This document shows, in pieces, positions 5,264-58,740 of a DNA stretch of 64,000 nt. The notes beneath the pieces were generated by a model. That model did not search any database. It saw only the letters and a program-made list of their open reading frames with translations, and was not told the DNA's origin. Origin of the DNA: Octopus vulgaris (lineage: Eukaryota); NCBI GenBank assembly GCA_951406725.2, contig OX597842.1, positions 19,468,001-19,532,000 of the forward strand, read 5' to 3'. The position numbers and the translations under genes are program-made. Position 1 is the first letter of the stretch. Each line of letters begins with the position of its first letter.

Positions 5264-5768
<505 letters not shown>

Positions 5769-10339: not shown

Positions 10340-10609
10340 ATCATTGCCTTTCTGAGCGAACGATTTGCCACAGATATCACAGTGATATGACTTCTCACCT
10401 GTATGGACGCGTCTGTGCCTAGACAAGCCTTGATTTTCAGAGAATGATCTACCACAGGTATCACAATGATATGGCTTCTCTCCTGTATGAATACGTCGGT
10501 GAGTGAGTAAGTTAGTTTTCCGAGAGAATAATTTACCACAGGTATCACAATCATATGATGTCTTGCCCTCTTTATCTCTACATCATCAGATAAATCAATT
10601 ATTTTAGAT
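10340..10609 (-). pseudogene. Inverted ZNF fragment (leader plus ~2.5 fingers) upstream of copy 2
   Basis: Minus strand encodes IDLSDDV...[33 protein letters not shown] with a 1-bp deletion. Absent at the homologous site near 24120. Confidence 0.85.
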
Positions 10610-11904: not shown

Positions 11905-13416
11905 ATGGAAAATGAATTACGTAGGAGTGAAGTTGAATGTAAAAAAGAGTCTGAAAAAATTGATTTTTCTGATGAGGAAAAGAATGAAAAGGGCAAAACA
12001 TCATTTGATTGTGATATCTGTGGCAAGTCGTTCTCTCAGAAAGCTAAGTTAGTCATTCACGAACGTACTCATACAGGAGAAAAACCATATCACTGTGAAA
12101 TCTGTGACAAATCTTTCTCTCGAAACGATCACTTAACTAGGCACAAGCATGTTCATACAGGAGAAAAGCCATATCAGTGTGATATCTGTGATAAATCCTT
12201 CTCTCAAACCGATCACTTAACCAAGCACATACGCATCCATACAGGTGAGAAGCCATACCACTGTGATATCTGTGGTATATCATTCTCTACATGCAGTGTA
12301 TTAGCTACTCACAGGCATTTTCATACTGGAGGGATACCGTATAGCTGTGAATTCTGTGGTAAATCCTTTTCTCGAAACGGTCACTTAACTAGGCACAAAA
12401 GTAGTGTTCACACTGGAGAAGCACCATATCACTGTGAAATCTGTGACAAATCTTTCTCTCGAAACGATAACTTAACCATGCACAGGCGTGTTCATACTGG
12501 AGAAAAACCATATCACTGTGAAATCTGTGGTAAATCTTTCTCTCGAAACGAATGCTTAACCAAGCACAAGCAGGTTCATACAGGAGAAAAACCATATCAC
12601 TGTGAAATCTGTGGTAAATCTTTCTCTCGAAACGAATGCTTAACCAAGCACAAGAGTGGTGTTCACACAGGAGAAAAACCATATCACTGTGAAATCTGTG
12701 GTAAATCTTTCTCTCGAAACGAATGCTTAACCAAGCACAAGCAGGTTCATACAGGAGAAAAACCATATCACTGTGAAATCTGTGGGAAATCCTTTTCTCA
12801 AAACGATTCCTTAATCATGCACAAGCGTGTTCATACAGGAGAAAAGCCATATCACTGTGATATCTGTGATAAATCCTTTTCTCAAAACGATTCCTTAATC
12901 AAGCACAAGCATGTTCATACAGGAGAAAAACCATATCACTGTGAAATCTGTGGTAAATCTTTCTCTCGAAACGATTCCTTAACAAAGCACAAGCGTGTTC
13001 ATACAGGAGAAGTACCATATCACTGTGAAATCTGTGGTAAATCTTTCTCTCTAAATCATTCCTTAACCAAGCACAGGCGTGTTCATACAGGAGAGAAACC
13101 ATATCACTGTGATATCTGTGATAAATCCTTCTCTCGAAGTTATAGCTTGACTACGCACATACGCATCCATACAGGTGAGAAGCCATACCATTGTGATATC
13201 TGTGGTAAATCCTTTTCTCAAAACGAACACATAACTAGGCACAAGATTAGTGTTCATACAGGAGAAGTACCATATCACTGTGAAATCTGTGGTAAATCTT
13301 TCTCTCGAAATGATACCTTAACCCAGCATAAGCGTGTTCATACAGGAGAAAAACCATATCATTGTGATATCTCTGGTAAATCATTTTCTCAAAATAGTCA
13401 GCTGCTTAATCACTGA
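11905..13416 (+). CDS. C2H2 zinc-finger protein, copy 2 (503 aa, 16 fingers)
   Basis: First ATG of the ORF is 11905; the track starts at an upstream TTG. Uninterrupted CxxC-x12-HxxxH repeats with TGEKPY linkers. Confidence 0.9.
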
Positions 13417-19539: not shown

Positions 19540-20420
19540 ATGTCAAACTGGTCGCTCCTCGCAGTGATATAGATGATCTTCGTCAATGCCTCCACCAAGT
19601 TTGGAGATGGTCTAACAAATGGGACCTGTGTCTGAACGTGTCAAAGTGCTGTCATCTGCCTGTTGGCTCTTCTCCTGCAACTCAACTTGATTTCGAGCCG
19701 GGTCGTCTGCTGCTGGAGAGGACCGACCAGGTAAAGTACCTGGGTATCTTGGTGGATTCTTCCTTTTCACCTTCAGCCCAGTGCGTCCATGCTGCCAACA
19801 ATGCACGTGGAGTTCTCTTTTTGATTTGACGGTTATTCGGAATGCTCACAGCAGCCATATTCCTACCGCTCTATGTCACGCTGGTGAGACCCATATTAGA
19901 GTGCGGGATTCAAGCCTTTTCTCCTTATCTTCTCAAAGAAATACATCATTTCAAAAGAGTCCAAAAGCTGGCTACCCGCATGGTTCTTGGTCTCAAGCAT
20001 TTGTTTTATGAAGAAAGGCTGAAGACGCTCGACCTTTATTCTCTAGAAAAACGCCGCCGCCATGGTGATCTCATTCTCGCTCACATCATAAGTGGAAAGT
20101 GTAACCTCTCGAAAGAGCTGTTCTTCACTCCTGCTCCAGAGCGTCGGCTGTGGGGTCACTCCGAAAAGCTCTATCTATGACGATTTCATCACAATCGAAA
20201 GAGAGGGGCTTTCTCCGACCGGGTTGTGGATCCGTGGAATAAGCTGCCGGAAGAGATAGTGAAGATGCCCACGACCACTCTGTTCAAAGTCTCTCTTGAC
20301 CAGAAATGGCCTGAACTCTTTGCATGAACACCCTCCCTGTACATAACTCCATGTCCCCCTACATTGCCTTGCTTTTTGCTTTTTGAGCCAAAAAATTAAC
20401 TTAACCTAACTTAACTTAAC
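19540..20420 (+). mobile_element. CR1-like LINE, 5'-truncated
   Basis: DVKL..W..W.L.LNVSKC, KYLGI.VD, LYVTLVRPILE, RVQKLATRMV..L..L.YEERLK.L.L.SLEKRR; (TTAAC)n tail. Confidence 0.9.
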
Positions 20421-23815: not shown

Positions 23816-24421
23816 AGAGAGTATCACGCTAAGTAAAAGTATGGTTGCCCTTGCATGCAAGCTAATCTCTTGCAACTCTTTCCCTAACCTTTAGGCTCAT
23901 GGCTGCTGGTGTGCCATGTGGAAAGCTCCAATGTAAACTGTGTAAAGTGGTCGTGTCAGGAAGGGCATACGGCCACAAAAACCAGGCTAAAATAGAGATG
24001 GAGCCTGAACAGCCCTTCAGCTGGTTAGCTCTTTTCAAATCATCCAACCCATGCCAGTGTGTAAAATGGAATTTAAATGATGATGAAGTAATAATTTTAA
24101 ATTTGCATAGACATCTTGTAGTATGCTGTTCAAAGCCTGCTCACTGTATTTGGCTATCTGATGTCATACCCTTGCATACAAGCTTGTCCCTTGCAACCTT
24201 CTCCAGCTGAGCATCCCTAATCTTCCAGGCTCATAGGGGCTGCATAAGAGCATCCAGCACACCCTGTAAAGTGGTTGCATTATGAAGGGCATCCAGCCAT
24301 AGAAACTATACCAAAACAGAAATGAACCCTGAACAGCCCTCAGCTGGTTAGCACCTTTCTAACCATCCAAGCCATGCCAGTATGTAAAATGGACTTTAAA
24401 TGATGATGAAGTAATAATTCT

Positions 24422-32089: not shown

Positions 32090-32727
32090 GATATATATAT
32101 ATATGAAGTTATTATGTTACTTCTCATATATATTTGAAGGCGCATGGCTCATTCGTGAGTTCAATTCATGTCATCTTCATCAGATTGAACAGTGTTAAAG
32201 GTTAAAGGGTCAAAGCGAAATGCAGCCACATTTTCTCTACAAAACTACTTTAAGACGTTTTCCAATGGCTGAATGACGACACGTATTAATCTGGTTTCTT
32301 CTCTAAATATTCTGGTAAAGTAAGGATGCATCTTGTACACCAGCAAATACTCAGTGAAGTGCAAGTTAATTCATAATTAGTCAACGCCGTTGCCAAACAT
32401 TGAAGAATCTTGTTTAATAATTTGACTAATTTAGTGAAATTCAAAAGTTACTCCAATACTGATTCGGTGTAAGGAATGGAAACCTACTTATTTCCCTTTA
32501 ATTTCTATTTACTTTCTTAAATCTCCCATACTGAAGGATTATGCTTATTAGAGCCATGCTATCCATGCCAACCATGTACAATTACTAACATTTTCTCACA
32601 CTAAACCATCCCACTTACTAAAAATATCCTTCTTCTAGAGGATGGGGTTTAGTCAACTGGTACTTAATTTATCGACCCCGAAACGATGAAAGGCACAATC
32701 GATCATGGTGGAATTTGAACTAAGAAC

Positions 32728-32980
32728 TGTGGGATGACGTCAGCGGCTAGGAAGCTGACCGGAAGAGGAAGGGCGCGCACAGGGTTGGGGCGGTTGCGCC
32801 CTTTTCGATCGGGGAAGTTATGAGTGCAGGACGTGTCAGTGCTTCAACCAGTTGAGGAATAGCAGCTGCTATTTTTAGCGTTTCGGGACGGGCCACGTGG
32901 AAGGGTACATTACCTTCAGACAGATATGGGTCAACGAAGAAAAGGTACGTGTCTTACTTCTAATCTCCCGTATTCACTAC
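32728..32980 (+). promoter_or_regulatory. 253-bp GC-rich insertion (solo-LTR-like) with promoter motifs and splice donor
   Basis: Flanked by GAAC on both sides inside a minus-strand SINE. TGACGTCA at 32735, ACCGGAAG at 32758, GGGGCGG, CACGTG, and AAG|GTACGT at 32945. Confidence 0.55.
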
Positions 32981-33065
32981 GAACGTAGCGACGGTCGAAA
33001 TAGCGGTTAGCATTTCGTCCGGCGTGCTAACGATCCTGCCTGCTCGCCGCCCTGCAAAATACGTT

Positions 33066-33186
33066 AGATGCTTTGGGCAGATAGGTTGTCCAAGCGGTCA
33101 CCCGTCTAAGTACCCTGCAGGCTGGACATTGCTTCACTTCGGTGATCAGGCGAGACAAGGTGCAATCAGCATTATATGGCTGTAAT
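33066..33186 (-). pseudogene. 5S rRNA pseudogene / 5S-derived sequence
   Basis: Minus strand ATTACAGCCATA..TCTCGCCTGATCACCGAAGTGAAGC..GTACTTAGACGGGTGACCGCTTGG; ~120 nt, with TTTT shortly downstream. Confidence 0.75.
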
Positions 33187-33522
33187 AACAATATTAACAG
33201 TTTCAAAACATTCGCATTTTCTGAAGGTGGTAAAGTAGAGTTTGGTCAGTCGCTCGTACAAGTTATGCTCCTTATAATTATTTATTCAGTTATCTGCTAG
33301 GAGCAAAGTTTTTATTAAAAGGCCTACTGATGGTGGTTTGGGGGAGTTAGTAACTACCATCGACCTCCTGTTTTGAATGGGTCTTTATTTTATTCATCCC
33401 AAAGCAATGAAAGGTAATATTGACATCGGTGGGATTTCGTTTCGGTAATTAAAGCAAACCAATGTATGTTTTATACATTCCCCTTTTTTATAAGTTTTTG
33501 TCAGTGATATTTCTGGTGTCAG

Positions 33523-33632
33523 ATATTCTTTGATCTCGTCTGAAATTAATGATTTTTCTGGATGAATTTCTACTTTTGTATCAAAAGTGAAGGGGAAAGG
33601 ACTATTTCGAAGATAACGAGTGAGATTAAATT
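33523..33632 (+). other. Putative non-coding 5' UTR exon of ZNF copy 6
   Basis: TCAG|ATATTC ... ATT|GTGAGT; paralog of 7885-8000. Confidence 0.5.
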
Positions 33633-34912
33633 GTGAGTGAAGTAATAATTTCTTCTTATTTTATATGAAATTTCGTTTTCTCTTTCTACAAACCTGTTTT
33701 AGTGGGAAATCTTAACAATATTCAAGATTTCTTTACATTTTCCCGATCATAAATGCTATTTGTAAACCTGCTGAAATTATGAAGATTAAGTTATTTATAG
33801 AAAAATATGTTTTTATGAAATTTGCTATAAATACCATTCAGAATGTGTGTATTAGAATTCTATCGGAATTTAATATGAAAATATAAATTTGGTGGGCTCG
33901 TACACATGAAAGTTAAAATTTTTAACGAAATTCTGGATTTGTCTCAGTATGTATGTGTATTTGTGTGTCTTTGTGTTAGTGTTTCTTCCCCTCCCATTCC
34001 CGCTTAACAAACGGTGTTGGTATATTTACATCCCTGGAACTTTCGGCAGCAGACTGATAAAATGAGTGCCAGGCATAAAAAACAAATACATATATGTAGT
34101 GGATGCGTGGATGTATTAATAAATACATAAGTGCTTTGTAATAAATTAAAGATTTATTATCACTACATCAATTTGTAAGCAATGTTACACATCGCTTGTA
34201 CAAAATGCATATTAAATAGTGGTTGCAAATAATACATATTAAAGGAATGCATAATACAGGATACACATTAAAGCAGAATATGTTTGATGGTGTGTGTGTG
34301 TGTAAATCATGCAGTACAGAGTCACCTTTCTGAATATTCTTTCGTCGTCCTCATAAATGCGTGACGTTCTCTTAAACGTTGGTTCGGCTTCTCTCTAGAT
34401 ACCTATTTCTCCGTTCTATTTATAACATCTCAAATAGCCAGAAAAATAGATATACCGCAAGAGTGTTATTGCGTACAGTAGGTCGCTGGTCGTCCTGTTA
34501 AACTTCGCCTGACCTGCTCGGGTCAGAGGTCGAAGGGAGACGATCCATCATTTTTTTGTTATAACAAAGAGATTCTGATTTCGCGCCTTTTTGTGCATTG
34601 GTATTTTACGACCAATGATTCTTGGGTCTGATTTCGAATCCAAGCTTTGAGAAGGAAGTGCTAATTCTTACATATATATATATATATATCATGGTGTTCT
34701 ATGTAAAGGGCATCTATACTGCTCTGCATAAAAAACACCCATACAAGGACCATGTGAGAAGATCTCAATACAATCTCTAAAGTGGTGGGCATTAAGAAGA
34801 GTGTCCAGCTGTAGAAAGCAATCTAAATCAGGCAGGAACTGGGGGCAGCACTCCTGTTTGCCAGCACAGGTCAAACCAACCAACCCAGCGAAGCATAGTA
34901 AATGGACATTAA

Positions 34913-35943
34913 CCCTTTCCTTACTATATTTCTGACTAAAATACACCCCTCATGAGTTTCAATTAAATTCTAAAATAATCATTAATCTAGGCTTGTTTCA
35001 TTAAATAACTGTAACTTTTTTACTTATCAACATCTTAATGTGATATTTGGAACATAATTAAAGAATGGGTTCTTAATCAATTCTACTGCATAACTTTTGT
35101 CTCAAATTGACTTTAATTACAGGTAAATTGAGCAAAAGGTAAAAATATTAAAATTTTGTTTAAACATCACCATAGAAAATGAATCATGAGCTAATATTCA
35201 AATGGGTATGCAACAAAATTTTGATAAAGAAGAATTGTGCACATCACTATATCATCAGTTGAATTTAATGCACAACAGGTGTACCATAAAGGTGGAATAA
35301 ACTGAAATATTGGAATCCACCGTATGTTTGACCGAACTAAAGAAATCGGTCAAAAAATAATATACGGCCCTGGTTTTGGTAAGGAAGTGATAAATTCCAG
35401 ACCACATCGTTCCCTAGGCCATGCTGACTAACATTATTTTCCCTGTATAAAAACTAAATCCACGCAGTACCCAGTATTTGCTTCACAAATTTTCCGGAAT
35501 TTAAACCCTTATTTTGGCTTTGTTTACATTCTGCGAAATTTTTGTTTCCGCATTGATCGCTTCAAACAATAACTTCCAGACCACATCATACCTTAAGTCA
35601 TGCTGACTAACATTAGTTTCCTTGTATAAAAACTAAATCCACAACAGTACCCAGTATTTGTTTCACAAATTTTCCAATTCGGAATCAATGCTTGATAACG
35701 TGAAACTCCTATCTATTTTCAAAGTTGAAGAAAAATCGATGCCGAAAAAAATGTGGAAAAAAATCTCCCAAAATTCAGGGAATTAAAATTACACATCGAT
35801 CATTGTACAAAACTGTAGATGAACAGTTTAGGAAGTATAATCACGTGTTTTCACGAATGTACTAAAGAGATTTGCTCTGATATTCTCATTTAAAAATGAA
35901 TAGGTAAATTCGGGCGGCTTTGGTCGGTTTGGTAACGAAAGGG
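34913..35943. mobile_element. Non-autonomous piggyBac element (1031 bp)
   Basis: TTAA target-site duplication (34909-34912, 35944-35947); TIRs CCCTTTC(C/G)TTAC. Empty site GGACATTAAATGTAAAA at ~9734 and ~55502. Internal ~100-bp direct repeat at ~35395 and ~35575. Confidence 0.92.
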
Positions 35944-36521
35944 TTAAATGTAAAAAGCTGTGCCAAAACTGACCTTGCCTGTGATCTTTCCACTTGAAAT
36001 GTACTCAATACCCTCTGTAGTATGGTTGATGTTAGGAAGAGCATCCAGCTGTAAAAGCTGAGCCAAAACAGACACACAAGTCTGGGGCAGTCTTCTGACT
36101 GACCACCTCCTACCAAACCATCCAACAGATACTGGTATTGAAGGTGGACATTAAATGAAGGGGATCAGGAAACGAGAATCCTGGCAGTTTGCTGTGTTTG
36201 AAAAGACACATCAAGCTAAGTAAAAGCATGGTTGCCCTTGCATACAAGCTTGTCCCTTGCAACCCCCTCCAGCTGAGCATCCCTAATCCTGCAGGCTCAT
36301 GGGTGCTGATACCACGTAAAAAGCACCCAGTACATTGTGTAAAGGGTTTGTGTTAGAAAGGGCATCCAGCAATAGAAACTATTTTAAGATAGAGATGGGG
36401 CCTGATCAGCCCTTCAGCTGGTTAGCTCCTTTCAAATCATCCAACCCATGCCAGTGTCTAAAATGGAATTTAAATGATGATGAAGTAATAATTTTAAATT
36501 TATATATACACCTTATAGTAT

Positions 36522-36792
36522 ATCATTGCCTTTCTGAGCGAACGATTTGCCACAGATATCACAGTGATATGGCTTCTCACCTGTATGGACGCGTCTGTGC
36601 CTTGACAAGCCTTGATTTCGAGAGAATGATCTACCACAGGTATCACAATGATATGGCTTCTCTCCTATATGAATACGTCGGTGAGTGAGTAGGTTAGTTT
36701 TCCGAGAGAATAATTTACCACAGGTATCACAATCATATGATGTTTTGCCCTCTTCATTCTCTACATCATCAGATAAATCAATTATTTTAGAT
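36522..36792 (-). pseudogene. Inverted ZNF fragment upstream of copy 6
   Basis: Minus ORF 36513-36803: leader plus 2.5 fingers, no ATG start. Confidence 0.85.
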
Positions 36793-38088
36793 AGCCTTCT
36801 CACTGTATTTGGCTATCTGATGTCATCTACAGTATGGATATAAATGACACTGGATTTATTTGAGGAATTCCTTCATGTCAGTAGAGTTTAAAACATGGGA
36901 GAAAGAGAAAGAAAATAGAATTTCCAAGTCTAGTATTCACTACAATTGTTTCAACCCATCGTGCATCTGTGCCTCGCAGGTGAGATTCTGTACGAACAGT
37001 TGTGGGGCATCCTTTGATGCAGACATGTCTCATCAGGTGACTTATCAAATGGTCCCTCGTATTTAAATTTCTGTTTTGCTTATTTCGATTAGAATTCATT
37101 TTGGTATTTGGGACATGTCAAGCTTCTTTCAGTTTCCATCAAACATGTCTTTGATTGGCCACTCTGGGACTGAACCCAGGACCATGTGGTTGGGAAGCCA
37201 ACTTCTTACCACACAACCATCCCTGCACTTCTACAGCCATGTCTATATAAAAATGTAGTAAAACTTTCACTGCTTTAATCTCTCTAATTCCGAATTATCT
37301 TGTATGTTTTACACTGTTGTTTCTCTTTCGTTTCAGATTATCAGATGACATCTGCTTCACAGGATTTTTATATAAGCAACGTCATTAGAATGGAAAGTCT
37401 TTTGAAGACTGAGCAAAGATGTTATACAAGACACGTATAACCCTGTTTCTATGAATATTTACTGAATTACTGCAAAATATATCTTCTGAACTCTGACATA
37501 TATGTAGCAAAATTTCTCTTCTTTATTGTCTGGAATACACGGAAAATTATATTTGCATATTAATTAATCATTTAGCATTTAAACTGGCACAAATATTCTG
37601 ACCTCTCACACTCACCTTGCAGTGTCAATTTAAACATAAACAATCAAATCACTGAAGTCTCAAAGCTATGAGATAATCCATGATTAATTCAAAACAATAT
37701 GAATAAATAAGCATTACATTTCACAAAGGAATCTCAATGCTAAACGGTTAAACTGGCCATATTTTTGTGTGTTTTATATTCATACTAGCCAGATCCCACC
37801 CCTCACACCCACCCTACAAGGCCATTCTAAAAATAAACAATCACAACATTGAAATCTGAACATGATAACATAATGAATAATTAATTCAGAAGAATTTCAA
37901 TAAACATTCTATTTGACAGAGTAATCTCAATGTTAATGAGTTAAAGCAATTAAGAAGGCAGTTTGCAGCATCTTCAGATATTAACAAAGAACACTTTTGA
38001 TGGAGATATATCAGTAGAAATATTTGTTCAGAGCAATATACGAGAAGAAGGAAAACCTTTGTGTACTGTGACGAGAGAAAGGAAAATT

Positions 38089-40275
38089 ATGGAAAATGAA
38101 TTATATTGGAGTGAAGTTGAATGTAAAAGAGAGTCTGAAGAAATTGATTTTTCTGATGAGGAAAAGAATGAAAAGGGCAAAACATCATTTGATTGTGATA
38201 TCTGTGGCAAGTCGTTCTCTCGGAAAGCTAAGTTAGTCATTCACGAACGTACTCATACAGGAGAAAAACCATATCACTGTGAAATCTGTGGTAAATCTTT
38301 CTCTCGAAACGAAAACTTAACTAGGCACAAGAATGGTGTTCACACTGGAGAAGCACCATATCACTGTGATATCTGTGACAAATCGTTTTCTCAAAACGAT
38401 CATTTAACTATGCACAGGCGTGTTCATACAGGAGAAAAACCATATCACTGTGAAATCTGTGGTAAATCTTTCTCTCGAAACGATACCTTAACCAAGCACA
38501 AGCGTGTTCATACAGGAGAAAAACCATATCACTGTGATATCTGTGGTAAAATATTATCTCAGAAGGGTAGCTTAGTCACTCACCGACGTATTCATACAGG
38601 AGAGAAGTCATATCACTGTGACGTTTGTGGTAAATCATTTCTTGATATTCATCATTTAACTACCCACAAACGCATTCATACAGGAGAGAAGCCATATCAC
38701 TGTGATATCTGTGGTAAATCCTTTTCTGAAATTAGTAAAGTAACTATTCACAAGCGTGTTCATACAGGAGAAAAACCATGTCACTGTGATATCTGTGGTA
38801 AATCATTCTTTGATAAAAGTTACTTAACTAGACACATGTGTATTCACACAGGTGAAAAGCCATATCAGTGTGATATCTGTGGTAAATCTTTCTCTGAAAC
38901 TAGTACCTTAACAATGCACAAGCGTACTGTTCACACAGGAGAGAAACCATATCACTGTGATATCTGTGGTATATCATTCTCTCAAAACGATCACTTGACT
39001 ATTCATAAATGCATTCACACAGGAGAGAAACCATATCACTGTGAAGTCTGTGGTAAATCCTTTTCTCGAAACGATCACTTAACCATGCACCGGCGTGTTC
39101 ATATGGGAGAAAAACCATATCACTGTGAAATCTGTGACAAATCATTCTCCCGAAACGATCACTTGACCATGCACAAGCATGTTCATACTGGAGAAAAACC
39201 ATATCACTGTGAAATCTGTGGTAAATCTTTCTCTCAAAACGGTACCTTAACCAAGCACAAGCATGTTCATACAGGAGAAAAACCATATCACTGTGAAATC
39301 TGTGGTAAATCTTTCTCTCGAAACGAAAACTTAACTAGGCACAAGAGTGGTGTTCACACAGGAGAAGGACCATATCACTGTGAAATCTGTGACAAATCTT
39401 TCTCTCGAAACGATCACTTAACTATGCACAGGCGTGTTCATACAGGAGAAAAGCCATATCACTGTGAAATCTGTGGTAAATCTTTCTCTCGAAACGATAA
39501 CTTAACCAAGCACAGGCGTGTTCATACAGGAGAAAAACCATATCACTGTGAAATCTGTGGTAAATCTTTCTCTCGATACAAATGCTTAACCAAGCACAAG
39601 CGTGTTCATACAGGAGAAAAACCATATCACTGTGAAATTTGTGGTAAATCCTTTTCTCAAAACGAAAACTTAACCATACACAGGCATGTTCATACAGGAG
39701 AAAAACCATATCACTGTGAAATCTGTGGTAAATCTTTCTCTCAAAACAAAACCTTAACCAAGCACAAGGGTGTTCATACAGGTGAAAAACCATATCACTG
39801 TGAAATCTGTGGTAAATCCTTTTCTCAAAACGATAACTTAACCATGCACAAGCGTGTTCATACAGGAGAAAAACCATATCACTGTGAAATCTGTGGTAAA
39901 TCTTTCTCTCGAAACGATTGCTTAACCAAGCACAGGCGTGTTCATACAGGAGAAAACCCATATCACTGTGATATCTGTGGTAAATCTTTCTCTCTAAATG
40001 ATACCTTAACCAAGCACAGGCGTGTTCATACTGGAGAAAACCCATATCACTGTGATATCTGTGATAAATCCTTCTCTCGAAGTGATAGCTTGACTAAGCA
40101 CATACGCATCCATACAGGTGAGAAGCCATACTACTGTGATATCTGTGGTAAATCCTTTTCTCAAAGCGATACCTTAAGTAGGCACAAGATTAGTGTTCAT
40201 ACAGGAGAAATACCATATCATTGTGATATCTCTGGTAAATCATTTTCTCAAAATAGTCAGCTGCTTAATCACTGA
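38089..40275 (+). CDS. C2H2 zinc-finger protein, copy 6 (728 aa, 24 fingers)
   Basis: ATG 38089; longest uninterrupted finger array in the window. Confidence 0.92.
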
Positions 40276-40549
40276 TACATTCATACAGGGTAAAAAAAAC
40301 CATATCACTGCGAAATCTGTGGTAAATCATTCTTTCAAAATAAAGGCGTGACTAATCACAGAAGCATTCATATAGGAGAGAAGCTGTAGCAACGTCATAT
40401 CTTTGGTAAAATATTTTAGGAAAATAGAATCTTAACTAATCAGATACATATTCACACAGATGAGAAGTCATATCATTGCGGTGTCTGTGGTAAGTCATTC
40501 TCTGATGGACCCAGGTTAATTATTCGCAAATACATTCATTCAAGTGTGA

Positions 40550-40654
<105 letters not shown>

Positions 40655-40657
40655 TGA

Positions 40658-40813
<156 letters not shown>

Positions 40814-41438
40814 TGAGGAATAGATTCATTTCCCAAGTCACAGACATTGTTTATGAGTTTTATTTTTCAAGCACAACATCCAAATTTTGAAAGTTTCTAC
40901 TACCATAACAAATGCATCTGTGTCTTACCAAGAAGTTTATAAAGAGCAAAGGAATGCTTCTCAGTAAATAATTCTAGACATGTTTCTTTGCTTGTGAATC
41001 AGTGGTCAAGTCTACAAATGATGGTGTCCCTGAGTCTTTTCAAAGTGATTCAGAAAACAGTTATAATAATAATATTTTATCTATTCTAAATGATCTTGAC
41101 ATTGTTTTTGACTTTACATAAAATATTCTTTACATTCTACTGTTGTTTTATTGTCATTTATTTACAAGTATTATTAATTTTATTGGTAAAATATTTTTCT
41201 AGGAATGAATTACAATTTATTACATTGCTTCTATGGGAAATTATTGCTTTGCTTTATGAGTTTTCACTTTAGGAGTAATCTCCAGAAGAGATTAACTCAC
41301 ATATCAAGGCATTATTTTGGCGCAAGGCCAGCGATTTCAGGGGAAGGAGTAAGTTGAATAACCACATGGATCAGCATGTGTGCTTTTTACATGAACTAGC
41401 ACAAATGCTTCTTACAGGGAGTGGCATTGCATGATATA

Positions 41439-41840
41439 TCTATATAAAATAAAGCTGAAGTTGTCTGTGTGTGTGTGGCAGGTTTTGCAGCCTTCAACTA
41501 ACACTATCTCTACCGAGACACTGTGGCGTATGTTGACCAAAATTGAGAGGATTATAGATGAAGGCTTGCTCTTCCTTCCGTAGGAGAAAAAATTCAAATC
41601 GCACCATGTCAACACCAAAAATTATTTAGATCAGAGAGGTGTTTTTTTTTCTATGAAAATCCCTATTTTTTACGATTCTTTGACTGCTGTGTCACCGTTT
41701 TTCGGTGTATTTCAACCAGAAAAATGTTCACTTAAATAGAATAACAAGCTACATGATGCAAAATTTATACTTTTCAAAAATTCCAATTCTAAAGGGTCGA
41801 AAAGAAAACAAACCCGAGCAACGCTGGACTATACTTCTAG
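41439..41840 (+). mobile_element. Non-autonomous Helitron-like element
   Basis: A|TC ... CCCGAGCAACGCTGG..CTAG|T. Confidence 0.75.
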
Positions 41841-42967: not shown

Positions 42968-43306
42968 AACAATATTAACAGTTTCAAAACATTCGCATTT
43001 TCTGAAGGTGGTAAAGTAGAGTTTGGTCAGTCGCTCGTACAAGTTATTCTCCTTGATATAATTATTTCTTCAGTTATCTGCTAGGAGCAAAGTTTTTATT
43101 AAAAGGCCTACTGATGGTGGTTTGGGGGAGTTAGTAACTACCATCGACCTCCTGTTTTGAATGGGTCTTTATTTTATTCATCCCAAATCAATGAAAGGTA
43201 AAATTGACATCGGTGGGATTTCGTTTCGGTAATTAAAGCAAACCAACGTATGTTTTATACATTCCCCTTTTCTATAAGTTTTTGTCAGTGATATTTCTGG
43301 TGTCAG

Positions 43307-43416
43307 ATATTCTTTGATCTCGTCTGAAATTAATGATTTTTCTGGATGAATTTCTACTTTTGTATCAAAACTGAAGGGGAAAGGACTATTTCGAAGATAA
43401 CGAGTGAGATTAAATT
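43307..43416 (+). other. Putative non-coding 5' UTR exon of ZNF copy 7
   Basis: TCAG| ... ATT|GTGAGT. Confidence 0.5.
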
Positions 43417-44882
43417 GTGAGTGAAGTAATAATTTCTTCTTATTTTATATTAAATTTCGTTTTCTCTTTCTACAAACCTGTTTTAGTGGGAAATCTTAAC
43501 AATATTCAAGATTTCTTTACATTTTCCCGATCATAAATGCTATTTGTAAACCTGCTGAAATTATGAAAATTAAGTTATTTATAGAAAAATACGTTTTTAT
43601 GAAATTTGCTATAAATACCATTCAGAATGTGTATATTAGAATTCTATCGGAATTTAATATGAAAATATAAATTTGGTGGGCCCGTACACATGAAAGTTAA
43701 AATTTTTGAAGAAATTCTGGATTTGTCTCAGTATGTATGTGTATTTGTGTTTCTTCCCCTCCCATTCCCGCTTAACAAACGGTGTTGGTATATTTACATC
43801 CCTGGAACTTTCGGCAGTAGACTGATAGAATGAGTTCTAGGCATAAAAGAACAAACAAGTTCTCGAGTCGATCCAATCTCACTACAGATTCTTCAAGGAG
43901 ATTCCCCAGCGTGGTGGCAGTCTAATGACAGAAACAAGTAAAAGATAATAATAATAATAATTAATTCGTTTATTAGCCACAAGGGCTAACAAAAATCAAT
44001 TATAACAAGCTACTTACCACACAGCCACTACTGCGCCTATAAAAAGATGTAGTAAAACTTTCACTGCTTTAATCTCTCTAATTCCTAATTATCTTGTATG
44101 TTTTACACTGTTGTTTCTCTTTCGTTTCAGATTATCAGATGACATCTGCTTCACAGGATTTTTACATAAGCAACGTCATTAGAATGGAAAGTCTTTTGAA
44201 GACTGAGCAAAGATGTTATACAAAACACGTATAACCCTGTTTCTATAAATATTTACTGAATTACTGCAAAATATATCTTCTGAACTCTGACATATATGTA
44301 ACAAAATTTCTCTTCTTTATTGTCTGGAATACACAGAAAATTATATTTGCATATTAATTAATCATTTAGCATTTAAACTAGCACAAATATTCTGACCTCT
44401 CACACTCACCCTGCAGTGTCAATTTAAACATAAACAATCAAATCACTGAAGTCTCAAAGCTATGAGATAATCCATGATTAATTCAAAACAATATGAATAA
44501 ATAAGCATTACATTTCACAAAGGAATCTCAATGCTAAACGGTTAAACTGGCCATATTTTTGTGTGTTTTATATTCATACTAGCCAGATCCCACCCCTCAC
44601 ACCCACCCTACAAGGTCATTCTAAAAATAAACAATCACTACATTGAAATCTGAACATGATAACATAATGAATGATTAATTCAGAAGAATTTCAATAAACA
44701 TTATATTTGACAGAGTAATCTGAATGTTAATGAGTTAAAGCAATTAAGAAGGCAGTTTGCAGCATCTTCAGATATTAACAAAGATCACTTTTGATGGAGA
44801 TATATCAGTAGAAATATTTGTTAAGAGCAATATACGAGAAGAAGGAAAACCTTTGTGTACTGTGACAAGAGAAAGGAACATT

Positions 44883-56107: not shown

Positions 56108-56378
56108 ATCATTGCCTTTCTGAGCGAACGATTTGCCACAGATATCACAGTGATATGGCTTCTCACCTGTATGGACGCATCTGTGCCTAGACAAGCCTTG
56201 ATTTTCAGAGAATGATCTACCACAGGTATCACAATGATATGGCTTCTCTCCTGTATGAATACGTCGGTGAGTGAGTAAGTTAGTTTTCCGAGAGAATAAT
56301 TTACCACAGGTATCACAATCATATGATGTTTTGCCCTCTTCATTCTCTACATCATCAGATAAATCAATTATTTTAGAT
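56108..56378 (-). pseudogene. Inverted ZNF fragment upstream of copy 8
   Basis: Minus ORF 56099-56389; same breakpoints as the 10340 and 36522 fragments. Confidence 0.85.
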
Positions 56379-57673: not shown

Positions 57674-58740
57674 ATGGAAAATGAATTACGTAGGAGTGAA
57701 GTTGAATGTAAAAGAGAGTCTGAAGAAATTGATTTTTCTGATGAGGAAAAGAATGAAAAGGGCAAAACATCATTTGATTGTGATATCTGTGGCAAGTCGT
57801 TCTCTTGGAAAGCTAAGTTAGTCATTCACGAACGTACTCATACAGGAGAAAAACCATATCACTGTGAAATCTGTGACAAATCGTTTTCTCAAAACAATTC
57901 CTTAACCAAGCACAAGCATGTTCATACAGGAGAAAAACCATATCACTGTGAAATCTGTGGTAAGTCTTTCTCTCAAAGCGAACACTTAACTAGGCACAAG
58001 AGTTGTGTTCATACAGGAGGAAAACCATATCACTGTGATATCTGTGGTAAGTCTTTCTCTCGAAGCGAAAACTTAACTAGGCACAAGAGTTGTGTTCATA
58101 CAGGAGAGAAACCATATCACTGTGAAATCTGTGGTGAATCCTTTTCTCAAAACGATCACTTAACCAATCACAAGCGTGTTCATACGGGAGAAAAACCATA
58201 TCACTGTGAAATCTGTGGTAAATCTTTCTCTCGAAACGAAAGCTTAACGAGGCACAAGAGTGGTGTTCACACAGGAGAGGCACCATATCACTGTGAAATC
58301 TGTGACAAATCTTTTCTCAAAACGATCACTTCACTATGCACAGGCGTGTTCATACAGGAGAAAAACCATATCACTGTGAAATCTGTGGTAAATCTTTCTC
58401 TCGAAACGAAAGCTTAACTAGGCACAGGCGTGTTCATACAGGAGAAAAACCATATCACTGTGAAATCTGTGGTAAATTTTTCTCTGAAAACGGTACCTTG
58501 ACCAAGCACAAGCGTGTTCATACAGGAGAAGAACCATATCACTGTGAAATCTGTGGTAAATCTTTCTCTCGAAACGATCACTTAACCATGCACAGGCGTG
58601 TTCATACAGGAGAAAAACCATATCACTGTGAAATCTGTGGTAAATCTTTCTCTCGAAACGATACCTTAACCAAGCACAAGTGTGTTCATACAGGGGAGAA
58701 GCCATATCATTGTGATATCTCTGGTAAATCATTTTCTTAA
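57674..58740 (+). pseudogene. C2H2 ZNF copy 8 (11 fingers; one frameshift, possibly a sequencing error)
   Basis: TCTTTTCTCAA at ~58310 versus TCTTTTTCTCAA in copy 4; same TAA stop as copy 4. Confidence 0.75.

What the first reader, a model, noticed from the sequence alone, without database searches (positions are those of the whole stretch)
36522..38340. Intronic inverted ZNF fragment positioned to fold back on the coding exon (candidate editing-complementary element)
Seen: copies 2, 6 and 8 carry a 270-bp antisense piece of a paralogous ZNF (10340-10609, 36522-36792, 56108-56378) ~1.3 kb before their ATG, between the putative 5' exon and the acceptor. It matches the leader and first 2.5 fingers at roughly 75-80% by eye. 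Copy 4 shows the empty site (~24122-24140, no target-site duplication). Several differences are sense-A versus fragment-G (AAG/GAG, AAA/AGA), which would be A-C mismatches in the duplex. Known: ADAR recoding often uses intronic complementary sequences and favours A-C mismatches, and coleoid cephalopods recode extensively. Inference: a gene-derived fold-back could recode or regulate these ZNFs, could pair weakly with any finger of the array, or could yield siRNAs against the cluster.
Basis: partly seen in the sequence, partly recalled or inferred. Interest (0 to 1): 0.72.

Follow-up and report, generated by a model that had tools for sequence, protein, structure and literature searches.

The report
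Inverted zinc-finger piece in an intron
A 260-base backwards copy of a zinc-finger gene's start sits in the first intron of 21 duplicated zinc-finger gene units and is predicted to fold back on their coding sequence, where it would likely attract some incidental RNA editing, but it mutates like neutral intron and shows no sign of being kept for that job.

Summary
A ~260-nt antisense piece of a C2H2 zinc-finger coding start lies ~1.3 kb before the ATG in copies 2, 6 and 8, 78-80% identical to leader plus 2.5 fingers. The genome holds 21 such units, all at the same spot and strand; 9 related units show the empty site, and a flank tree gives one gain. Spliced contigs from presumed RNA runs put the spot inside intron 1. 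Folding predicts a 215-pair duplex with the coding start. The functional reading is not supported so far: the piece diverges like its flanks, 6 of 21 copies are broken, it pairs no better with its own host than with hosts lacking it, and A-C mismatches are not enriched (14.2% of sense A versus 13.7% G-U of sense G; 8 of 12 testable ones were inherited from the donor subfamily). Editing itself could not be measured. Best reading: one accidental templated insertion, spread by duplication, likely giving incidental editing of unspliced RNA. Paralog-derived editing partners are known in human; capture in an upstream intron across a gene cluster is a variant. Its value is as a natural plus/minus experiment.

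The parts
36528..36791 (-). Inverted C2H2-ZNF coding fragment (acidic leader from about codon 16, plus 2.5 fingers) in intron 1 of copy 6
   Evidence: boundaries from filled versus empty alignment
38134..38396 (+). Coding stretch predicted to pair with the fragment (leader and fingers 1-3 of copy 6)
38089..40275 (+). Copy 6 ORF, 728 aa, 24 C2H2 fingers by pattern
32720..32944 (+). GC/CpG-rich first exon, donor at 32945; 5' end approximate
   Evidence: homologous joint L058 4738-7368 in runs X1 and X6; mapped; CpG profile
33386..33632 (+).
   Evidence: joint L058 4738-6802 in run X5
37310..37337 (+). Intron 1 acceptor (AG 37335-37336); exon 2 starts at 37337
   Evidence: joints; sequence
36210..36500 (+). 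Interspersed repeat (SINE-like, label by recall) just left of the insertion, present in filled and empty units
10340..10609 (-). Fragment in copy 2 (1-nt frameshift); pairs with 11950-12206
56108..56378 (-). Fragment in copy 8; pairs with 57719-57975
24110..24140 (.). Empty site in copy 4, no target-site duplication

Best explanation
An inverted 260-nt piece of a zinc-finger paralog's coding start sits in intron 1 of 21 duplicated units, likely from one accidental templated insertion, and is predicted to fold onto the first fingers in unspliced RNA, where it would likely cause incidental, unselected A-to-I editing. Shown: position, strand, intronic location in spliced homologous transcripts, one gain on the flank tree, neutral-like decay. 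Inferred: origin by break repair or template switching (no poly-A, no target duplication, ~3-4 nt microhomology at the left end, ~2 nt lost); spread by whole-unit duplication; duplex forming before intron 1 is removed; ADAR acting on it. The duplex cannot exist in mature mRNA, so any edits must be made before splicing.
For: 21 copies, same site and strand; filled units are one side of a 99/99 branch, empties fall in three deep lineages (27 rows, 3 left out). Joints spanning the site and unspliced contigs bridging the fragment's edge in presumed RNA runs X1 and X5. 215 fragment-CDS pairs, 201 at p>0.9, helices to 21 bp versus 22 long-range pairs in empty copy 4. Neutrality: p-distance 0.033 versus 0.026-0.042 in intron flanks; pN/pS 0.72, p=0.38; 6 of 21 frames broken, two separate one-finger deletions; pair-breaking changes 22 versus 22.4 expected; own host no better than others, p=0.37. 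Precedent for editing on paralog duplexes: PMC8897444 section 10.
Against: No editing was observed: the one fully itemised contig over the fragment (X1, L058 5089-5407) has 4 differences, none of the editing type, although contigs drop rare variants. The target begins ~800 nt past the acceptor, so splicing may come first. A weak trend towards the host base exists (8 gains versus 4.6 expected, p=0.07; 27 losses versus 31.6, p=0.06). Young copies (2-5% apart) give low power for selection tests. RNA status of the runs is a guess; joints cannot be assigned to fragment-bearing copies (12 of 16 exon-1 homologues precede one). Organism is inferred to be an octopus, not named by any search.
Confidence: 0.55

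Rival explanations
1. Fully inert passenger: intron 1 is spliced before the target is made, or these copies are barely transcribed, so no duplex and no editing arise.
For: Target lies 800-1060 nt beyond the acceptor; no editing-type difference in the X1 contig; no A>G excess in the change tallies; 9 of 21 units, including copies 2 and 8, lack the main first exon; all neutrality results above fit.
Against: Unspliced contigs bridge the fragment edge in X1 and X5; removal of a last intron often waits for 3'-end definition (recalled); the predicted duplex is very stable.
Confidence: 0.23
2. Selected editing-complementary sequence that recodes the leader and first fingers (for example K29E, K69R, N76D/S in the finger-2 recognition helix) to diversify DNA binding.
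For: Geometry and duplex; 5 A-C single mismatches in the predicted fold, 3 non-synonymous; the filled type is the largest class (21 units); weak trend to keep pairing; found also in organism D (contig bridging the edge).
Against: No A-C enrichment; 6 of 13 A-C sites are synonymous and 8 of 12 testable were already G in coding relatives; 5 of the 8 pairing gains erase a G opposite a host A; no conservation above flanks; no tracking of host; hosts include truncated ORFs (0-24 fingers, median 9.5, versus 12.5 in empty units, p=0.07).
Confidence: 0.12
3. Dampening element: the duplex feeds Dicer (siRNAs against the whole cluster) or causes hyper-editing, nuclear retention or slower splicing.
For: The fragment pairs with every window of the array (-214 to -309) and with all paralogs tested; gene-derived hairpins make siRNAs in flies, mouse oocytes and plants (recalled).
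Against: 80% identity, longest helix 21 bp; arms 1.35 kb apart across a splice site; spliced contigs exist; no sign of selection; no small-RNA data seen.
Confidence: 0.07

Closest known systems
Paralog-derived editing-complementary sequences in human (CLDN9/CLDN6, TOR1B/TOR1A; PMC8897444 section 10)
   Same: A reverse-oriented paralogous coding sequence in the same RNA pairs with the CDS and could drive clustered recoding.
   Different: There the partner is an intact neighbouring gene reached by a long 3' UTR and editing is measured; here it is a captured fragment in an upstream intron, duplicated with the gene 21 times, active only before splicing, and editing is unshown.
Intronic ECS of recoding sites such as GluA2 Q/R (recalled)
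   Same: Intron-exon duplex that must form before splicing; A-C mismatches present.
   Different: Those are short, deeply conserved and usually downstream of the exon; this one is long, upstream, young and neutral-like.
Inverted Alu pairs as ADAR substrates and editing inducers (PMC4053975 passages)
   Same: About 260-300 nt imperfect duplex arising by insertion accident; can cause editing without selection.
   Different: One arm here is the coding sequence itself, and the insert is not a transposon.
Gene- or pseudogene-derived hairpin endo-siRNA loci (fly hpRNAs, mouse oocyte; recalled; PMC2708354 seen as listing only)
   Same: Inverted gene-derived sequence with family-wide complementarity.
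   Different: Lower identity, arms split by a splice site, no small-RNA evidence.

Membership tests
Editing-complementary sequence (ECS) | In the same primary transcript as the target | tested here: met
   GT..AG joints from upstream exons to the acceptor skip the fragment; unspliced contigs bridge its edge. Family-level, not copy-level; RNA status is a guess.
Editing-complementary sequence (ECS) | Forms a stable duplex with the exon | tested here: met
   Prediction only: 215 pairs, 201 at p>0.9; -309 versus -98 for shuffles.
Editing-complementary sequence (ECS) | A-to-I editing of the paired exon that depends on the element | not testable with these tools
   Only contigs were offered; they drop rare variants and merge paralogs. 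No editing-type change in the one itemised contig.
Selected recoding ECS | Conserved above flanks, compensatory change with host | tested here: not met
   low power because copies are 2-5% apart; one weak trend at p=0.06-0.07.
Selected recoding ECS | A-C mismatches placed on target adenosines beyond chance | tested here: not met
   13 A-C versus 6 G-U in copy 6, p=0.17; 14.2% versus 13.7% per base; 8 of 12 inherited.
Retrocopy or 3' transduction | Poly-A tail, target-site duplication, travels with the element | tested here: not met
   No tail or duplication; neighbouring repeat is present in empty units too.
Hairpin endo-siRNA locus | 21-22-nt small RNAs from both arms | not testable with these tools
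   No small-RNA run listed; no Rfam match in 32500-41500.
C2H2 zinc-finger coding sequence | PF00096 / PF13465 domains | tested here: met
   Fragment frame and copy 6 ORF both pass the curated cut-offs.

The most novel reading that the evidence does not exclude
A captured, inverted piece of a paralog acts as a portable upstream-intron editing guide that was duplicated with 21 zinc-finger genes and lets ADAR recode their first fingers, including a base-contact residue, so that the cluster gains RNA-level DNA-binding variants; sister genes without it are built-in controls for how coleoid recoding sites are born.
Probability: 0.12. Interest if true: 0.75.

Novelty: new variant of a known kind. 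Interest (0 to 1): 0.4.

Why it matters
Which structures create coleoid recoding sites, and whether new sites start as accidents, is open; PMC8891338 notes that introns are largely ignored in such studies (passage). Here 21 units with and at least 9 without a long intron-exon duplex have near-identical target exons, so one long-read experiment can test whether an accidental upstream-intron duplex is enough to create recoding. If no editing follows, it is an ordinary neutral insertion useful only as a marker of the cluster's duplication history.

Tried and rejected
Donor search: no intact donor among scored candidates (40 of 1839, 40 of 121, 150 of 11640; best non-copy 69% aa over most of the query, 76% over 68 aa). 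Nearest DNA relatives are internal fingers of the gene at C29:21939028 (88% over 200 nt) and an orphan stub at C19:51885200 (88% over 107 nt, but equally 87% to copy 6, so not a special donor). Two C28 genes sharing a 24-mer were only 76-78% alike. One search was crowded by long vertebrate ZNFs; two searches gave no name or taxon. Retro-copy of an edited RNA: rejected, A>G is 2 of 15 and 4 of 24 differences from the two relatives. Antisense protein: rejected, pN/pS 0.72 and 6 of 21 broken. Remnant of an old minus-strand gene deleted in copy 4: rejected by empty sites in three lineages. Assembly artefact: rejected, copies differ by 2-5% and independent runs bridge the edge. No RNA holder is on record as RNA. 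Contig depths (higher on exon 2 than on the intron) were not used, as the tool says they cannot rank parts of a gene. 'Opposite strand' joints are cross-mapping of other ZNFs. No joint into the fragment among the 15 of 26 joints shown. Host A>G variation in the paired region: 6 of 37 variant alleles in 20 filled hosts, 3 of 8 in 8 empty hosts, uninformative. Earlier-findings look-ups returned nothing. One paper (PMC5499236) was not held.

Full report
Setting. The window is G000:C29:19468001-19532000 of a 2.8-Gb genome and holds nine starts of tandem C2H2 zinc-finger genes on the plus strand. The ADAR argument leans on that inference.

Observation. The minus strand reads as an open frame of leader plus 2.5 fingers. 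Genome searches gave 19 full copies at 93-100% (40 of 1839 candidates scored) and 21 copies of the right end at 94-100% (40 of 121 scored); two carry separate internal deletions of about one finger. In ~460 kb fetched around them, all 21 lie antisense, after the same repeat and before the same acceptor, 1286-1297 nt from the ATG in 19 of 21. Counts are lower bounds.

Origin. Eight C29 units and one C27 unit show the empty site. The insert is ~36528-36791, has no poly-A or target duplication, shares 3-4 nt with the target at its left end and replaces ~2 nt at the right. A tree of the right flank (27 rows; F22053, E19539 and E22097 left out for failed extraction) puts the 20 filled rows on one side of a 99/99 branch, with empties in three deep lineages: one gain, if the root lies among the empties. 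A templated insertion during break repair or template switching is inferred. No intact donor was found; the nearest relatives are 88% alike.

Is it in the transcript? Both skip the fragment, so it lies in intron 1. Unspliced contigs bridge its right edge in X1 and X5, and in organism D (X18). Limits: RNA status is a guess, contigs have no strand, and joints cannot be tied to a copy; 12 of 16 full homologues of the GC-rich exon precede a filled unit, but 9 of 21 filled units, including copies 2 and 8, lack it.

Duplex. Folding 36500-38420 gives -596 kcal/mol with 215 fragment-CDS pairs, 201 at probability above 0.9, helices of 21, 18, 18 and 15 bp; the same length of empty copy 4 gives -458.5 and 22 long-range pairs. 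Fragment with host start: -309, shuffles -98 +/- 7 (n=50), perfect antisense -492; later windows of the array -214 to -258. This is a prediction that follows from homology and says nothing on function. The target lies 800-1060 nt past the acceptor, so the duplex needs intron 1 to persist; last-intron removal often waits for 3'-end definition (recalled).

A-C mismatches. Copy 6 has 13 A-C among 51 mismatches, against 6 G-U from sense G (p=0.17); per base this is 14.2% of sense A and 13.7% of sense G over the 19 non-independent units. Six of 13 are synonymous; of 12 covered by a relative, 8 are already G in the coding relative, so they are subfamily codon differences. Five fall in single mismatches of the predicted fold, three non-synonymous (K29E, K69R, D97G). 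N76, at a base-contact position of finger 2 (numbering recalled), faces two more but varies among hosts.

Selection. Among 19 full copies the fragment's p-distance is 0.033 against 0.042, 0.028 and 0.026 in adjacent intron and 0.022-0.030 in the 5' UTR; segregating sites 14.5% against 13.0-19.3% in intron. pN/pS 0.72, p=0.38; 6 of 21 frames broken. Own fragment pairs no better with its host than other fragments (p=0.37, n=19), and hosts of empty units pair as well (-301, n=8) as those of filled units (-298, n=20). Pair-breaking changes 22 of 41 against 22.4 expected; against my reading, changes towards the host base number 8 against 4.6 (p=0.07) and away from it 27 against 31.6 (p=0.06), which could be weak selection, conversion between arms or mis-polarised sites. 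Power is low.

Editing. Not measurable. The X1 contig over L058 5089-5407 has four differences, all listed, none of the editing type; 5283-5416 holds 38 gene-strand adenosines. Change tallies show no A>G excess on the gene strand. This argues only against majority editing in that sample.

Comparison. Reverse-oriented paralogs act as editing partners in human (PMC8897444, passages and section 10 read); inverted Alus induce editing (PMC4053975, passages). In squid, low-level recoding is described as a possible by-product (PMC9068888, passages); in octopus most editing is in introns and 3' UTRs (PMC9699675, passages); introns are a stated blind spot (PMC8891338, passages). Nine keyword searches of the open library listed no paper whose title or abstract start describes this element; most listed papers were seen as listings only and subscription journals are not held.

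Verdict. Real, correctly described, intronic and able to fold back; most likely an accidental neutral passenger with incidental editing (0.55), possibly inert (0.23), less likely a selected guide (0.12) or silencer (0.07). It works like a paralog-derived ECS in geometry but is not filed as one, since editing is untested and constraint was not found. Interest 0.4, mainly as a natural plus/minus test.

Noticed in passing
window 34096-34671: Solo-LTR-like insert (TG..CA ends) in intron 1 of copy 6 only among the fetched blocks; empty site visible in L058; covered by contigs of presumed RNA runs.
   Followed up: partly
window 34910-35947: 1.04-kb element with terminal inverted repeats in intron 1; full length in copy 6 and 4 other units, partial in 3 places.
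   Followed up: partly
window 753, 28462, 60139: Copies 1, 5 and 9 begin ~57 nt before the acceptor, with no intron 1 or first exon of their own: duplicates that could be spliced from an upstream copy's first exon.
   Followed up: no
window 43214-44194; C29:22017689-22018683; C29:22107851-22108847: Units with the same first exons as copy 6 but a short intron lacking the whole repeat-fragment block; loss or recombination with an older intron not resolved. Best controls for editing tests.
   Followed up: partly
C29:21890820-21892663 (L046): Unit whose coding fingers are themselves inverted behind the acceptor, beside a deleted fragment copy; inversions recur in this cluster.
   Followed up: no
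C27:23483034-23488964 (L069): Head-to-head pair of family members on another chromosome; one has the empty site with a flank close to the filled type.
   Followed up: partly
C19:51885000-51885310 (L071): Orphan stub of the family: 5' UTR 96% like copy 6, cut off in finger 1.
   Followed up: partly
C29:22015001-22040000 and 22105001-22130000: Near-identical ~90-kb-spaced repeat of several units: a recent segmental duplication or an assembly duplicate.
   Followed up: no
window 40276-40810: Decayed fingers continue after the stop of copy 6; most copies end by frameshift or stop at different fingers.
   Followed up: no
window 19842-20180: 112-aa frame resembling the end of a LINE reverse-transcriptase ORF (label by recall).
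   Followed up: no
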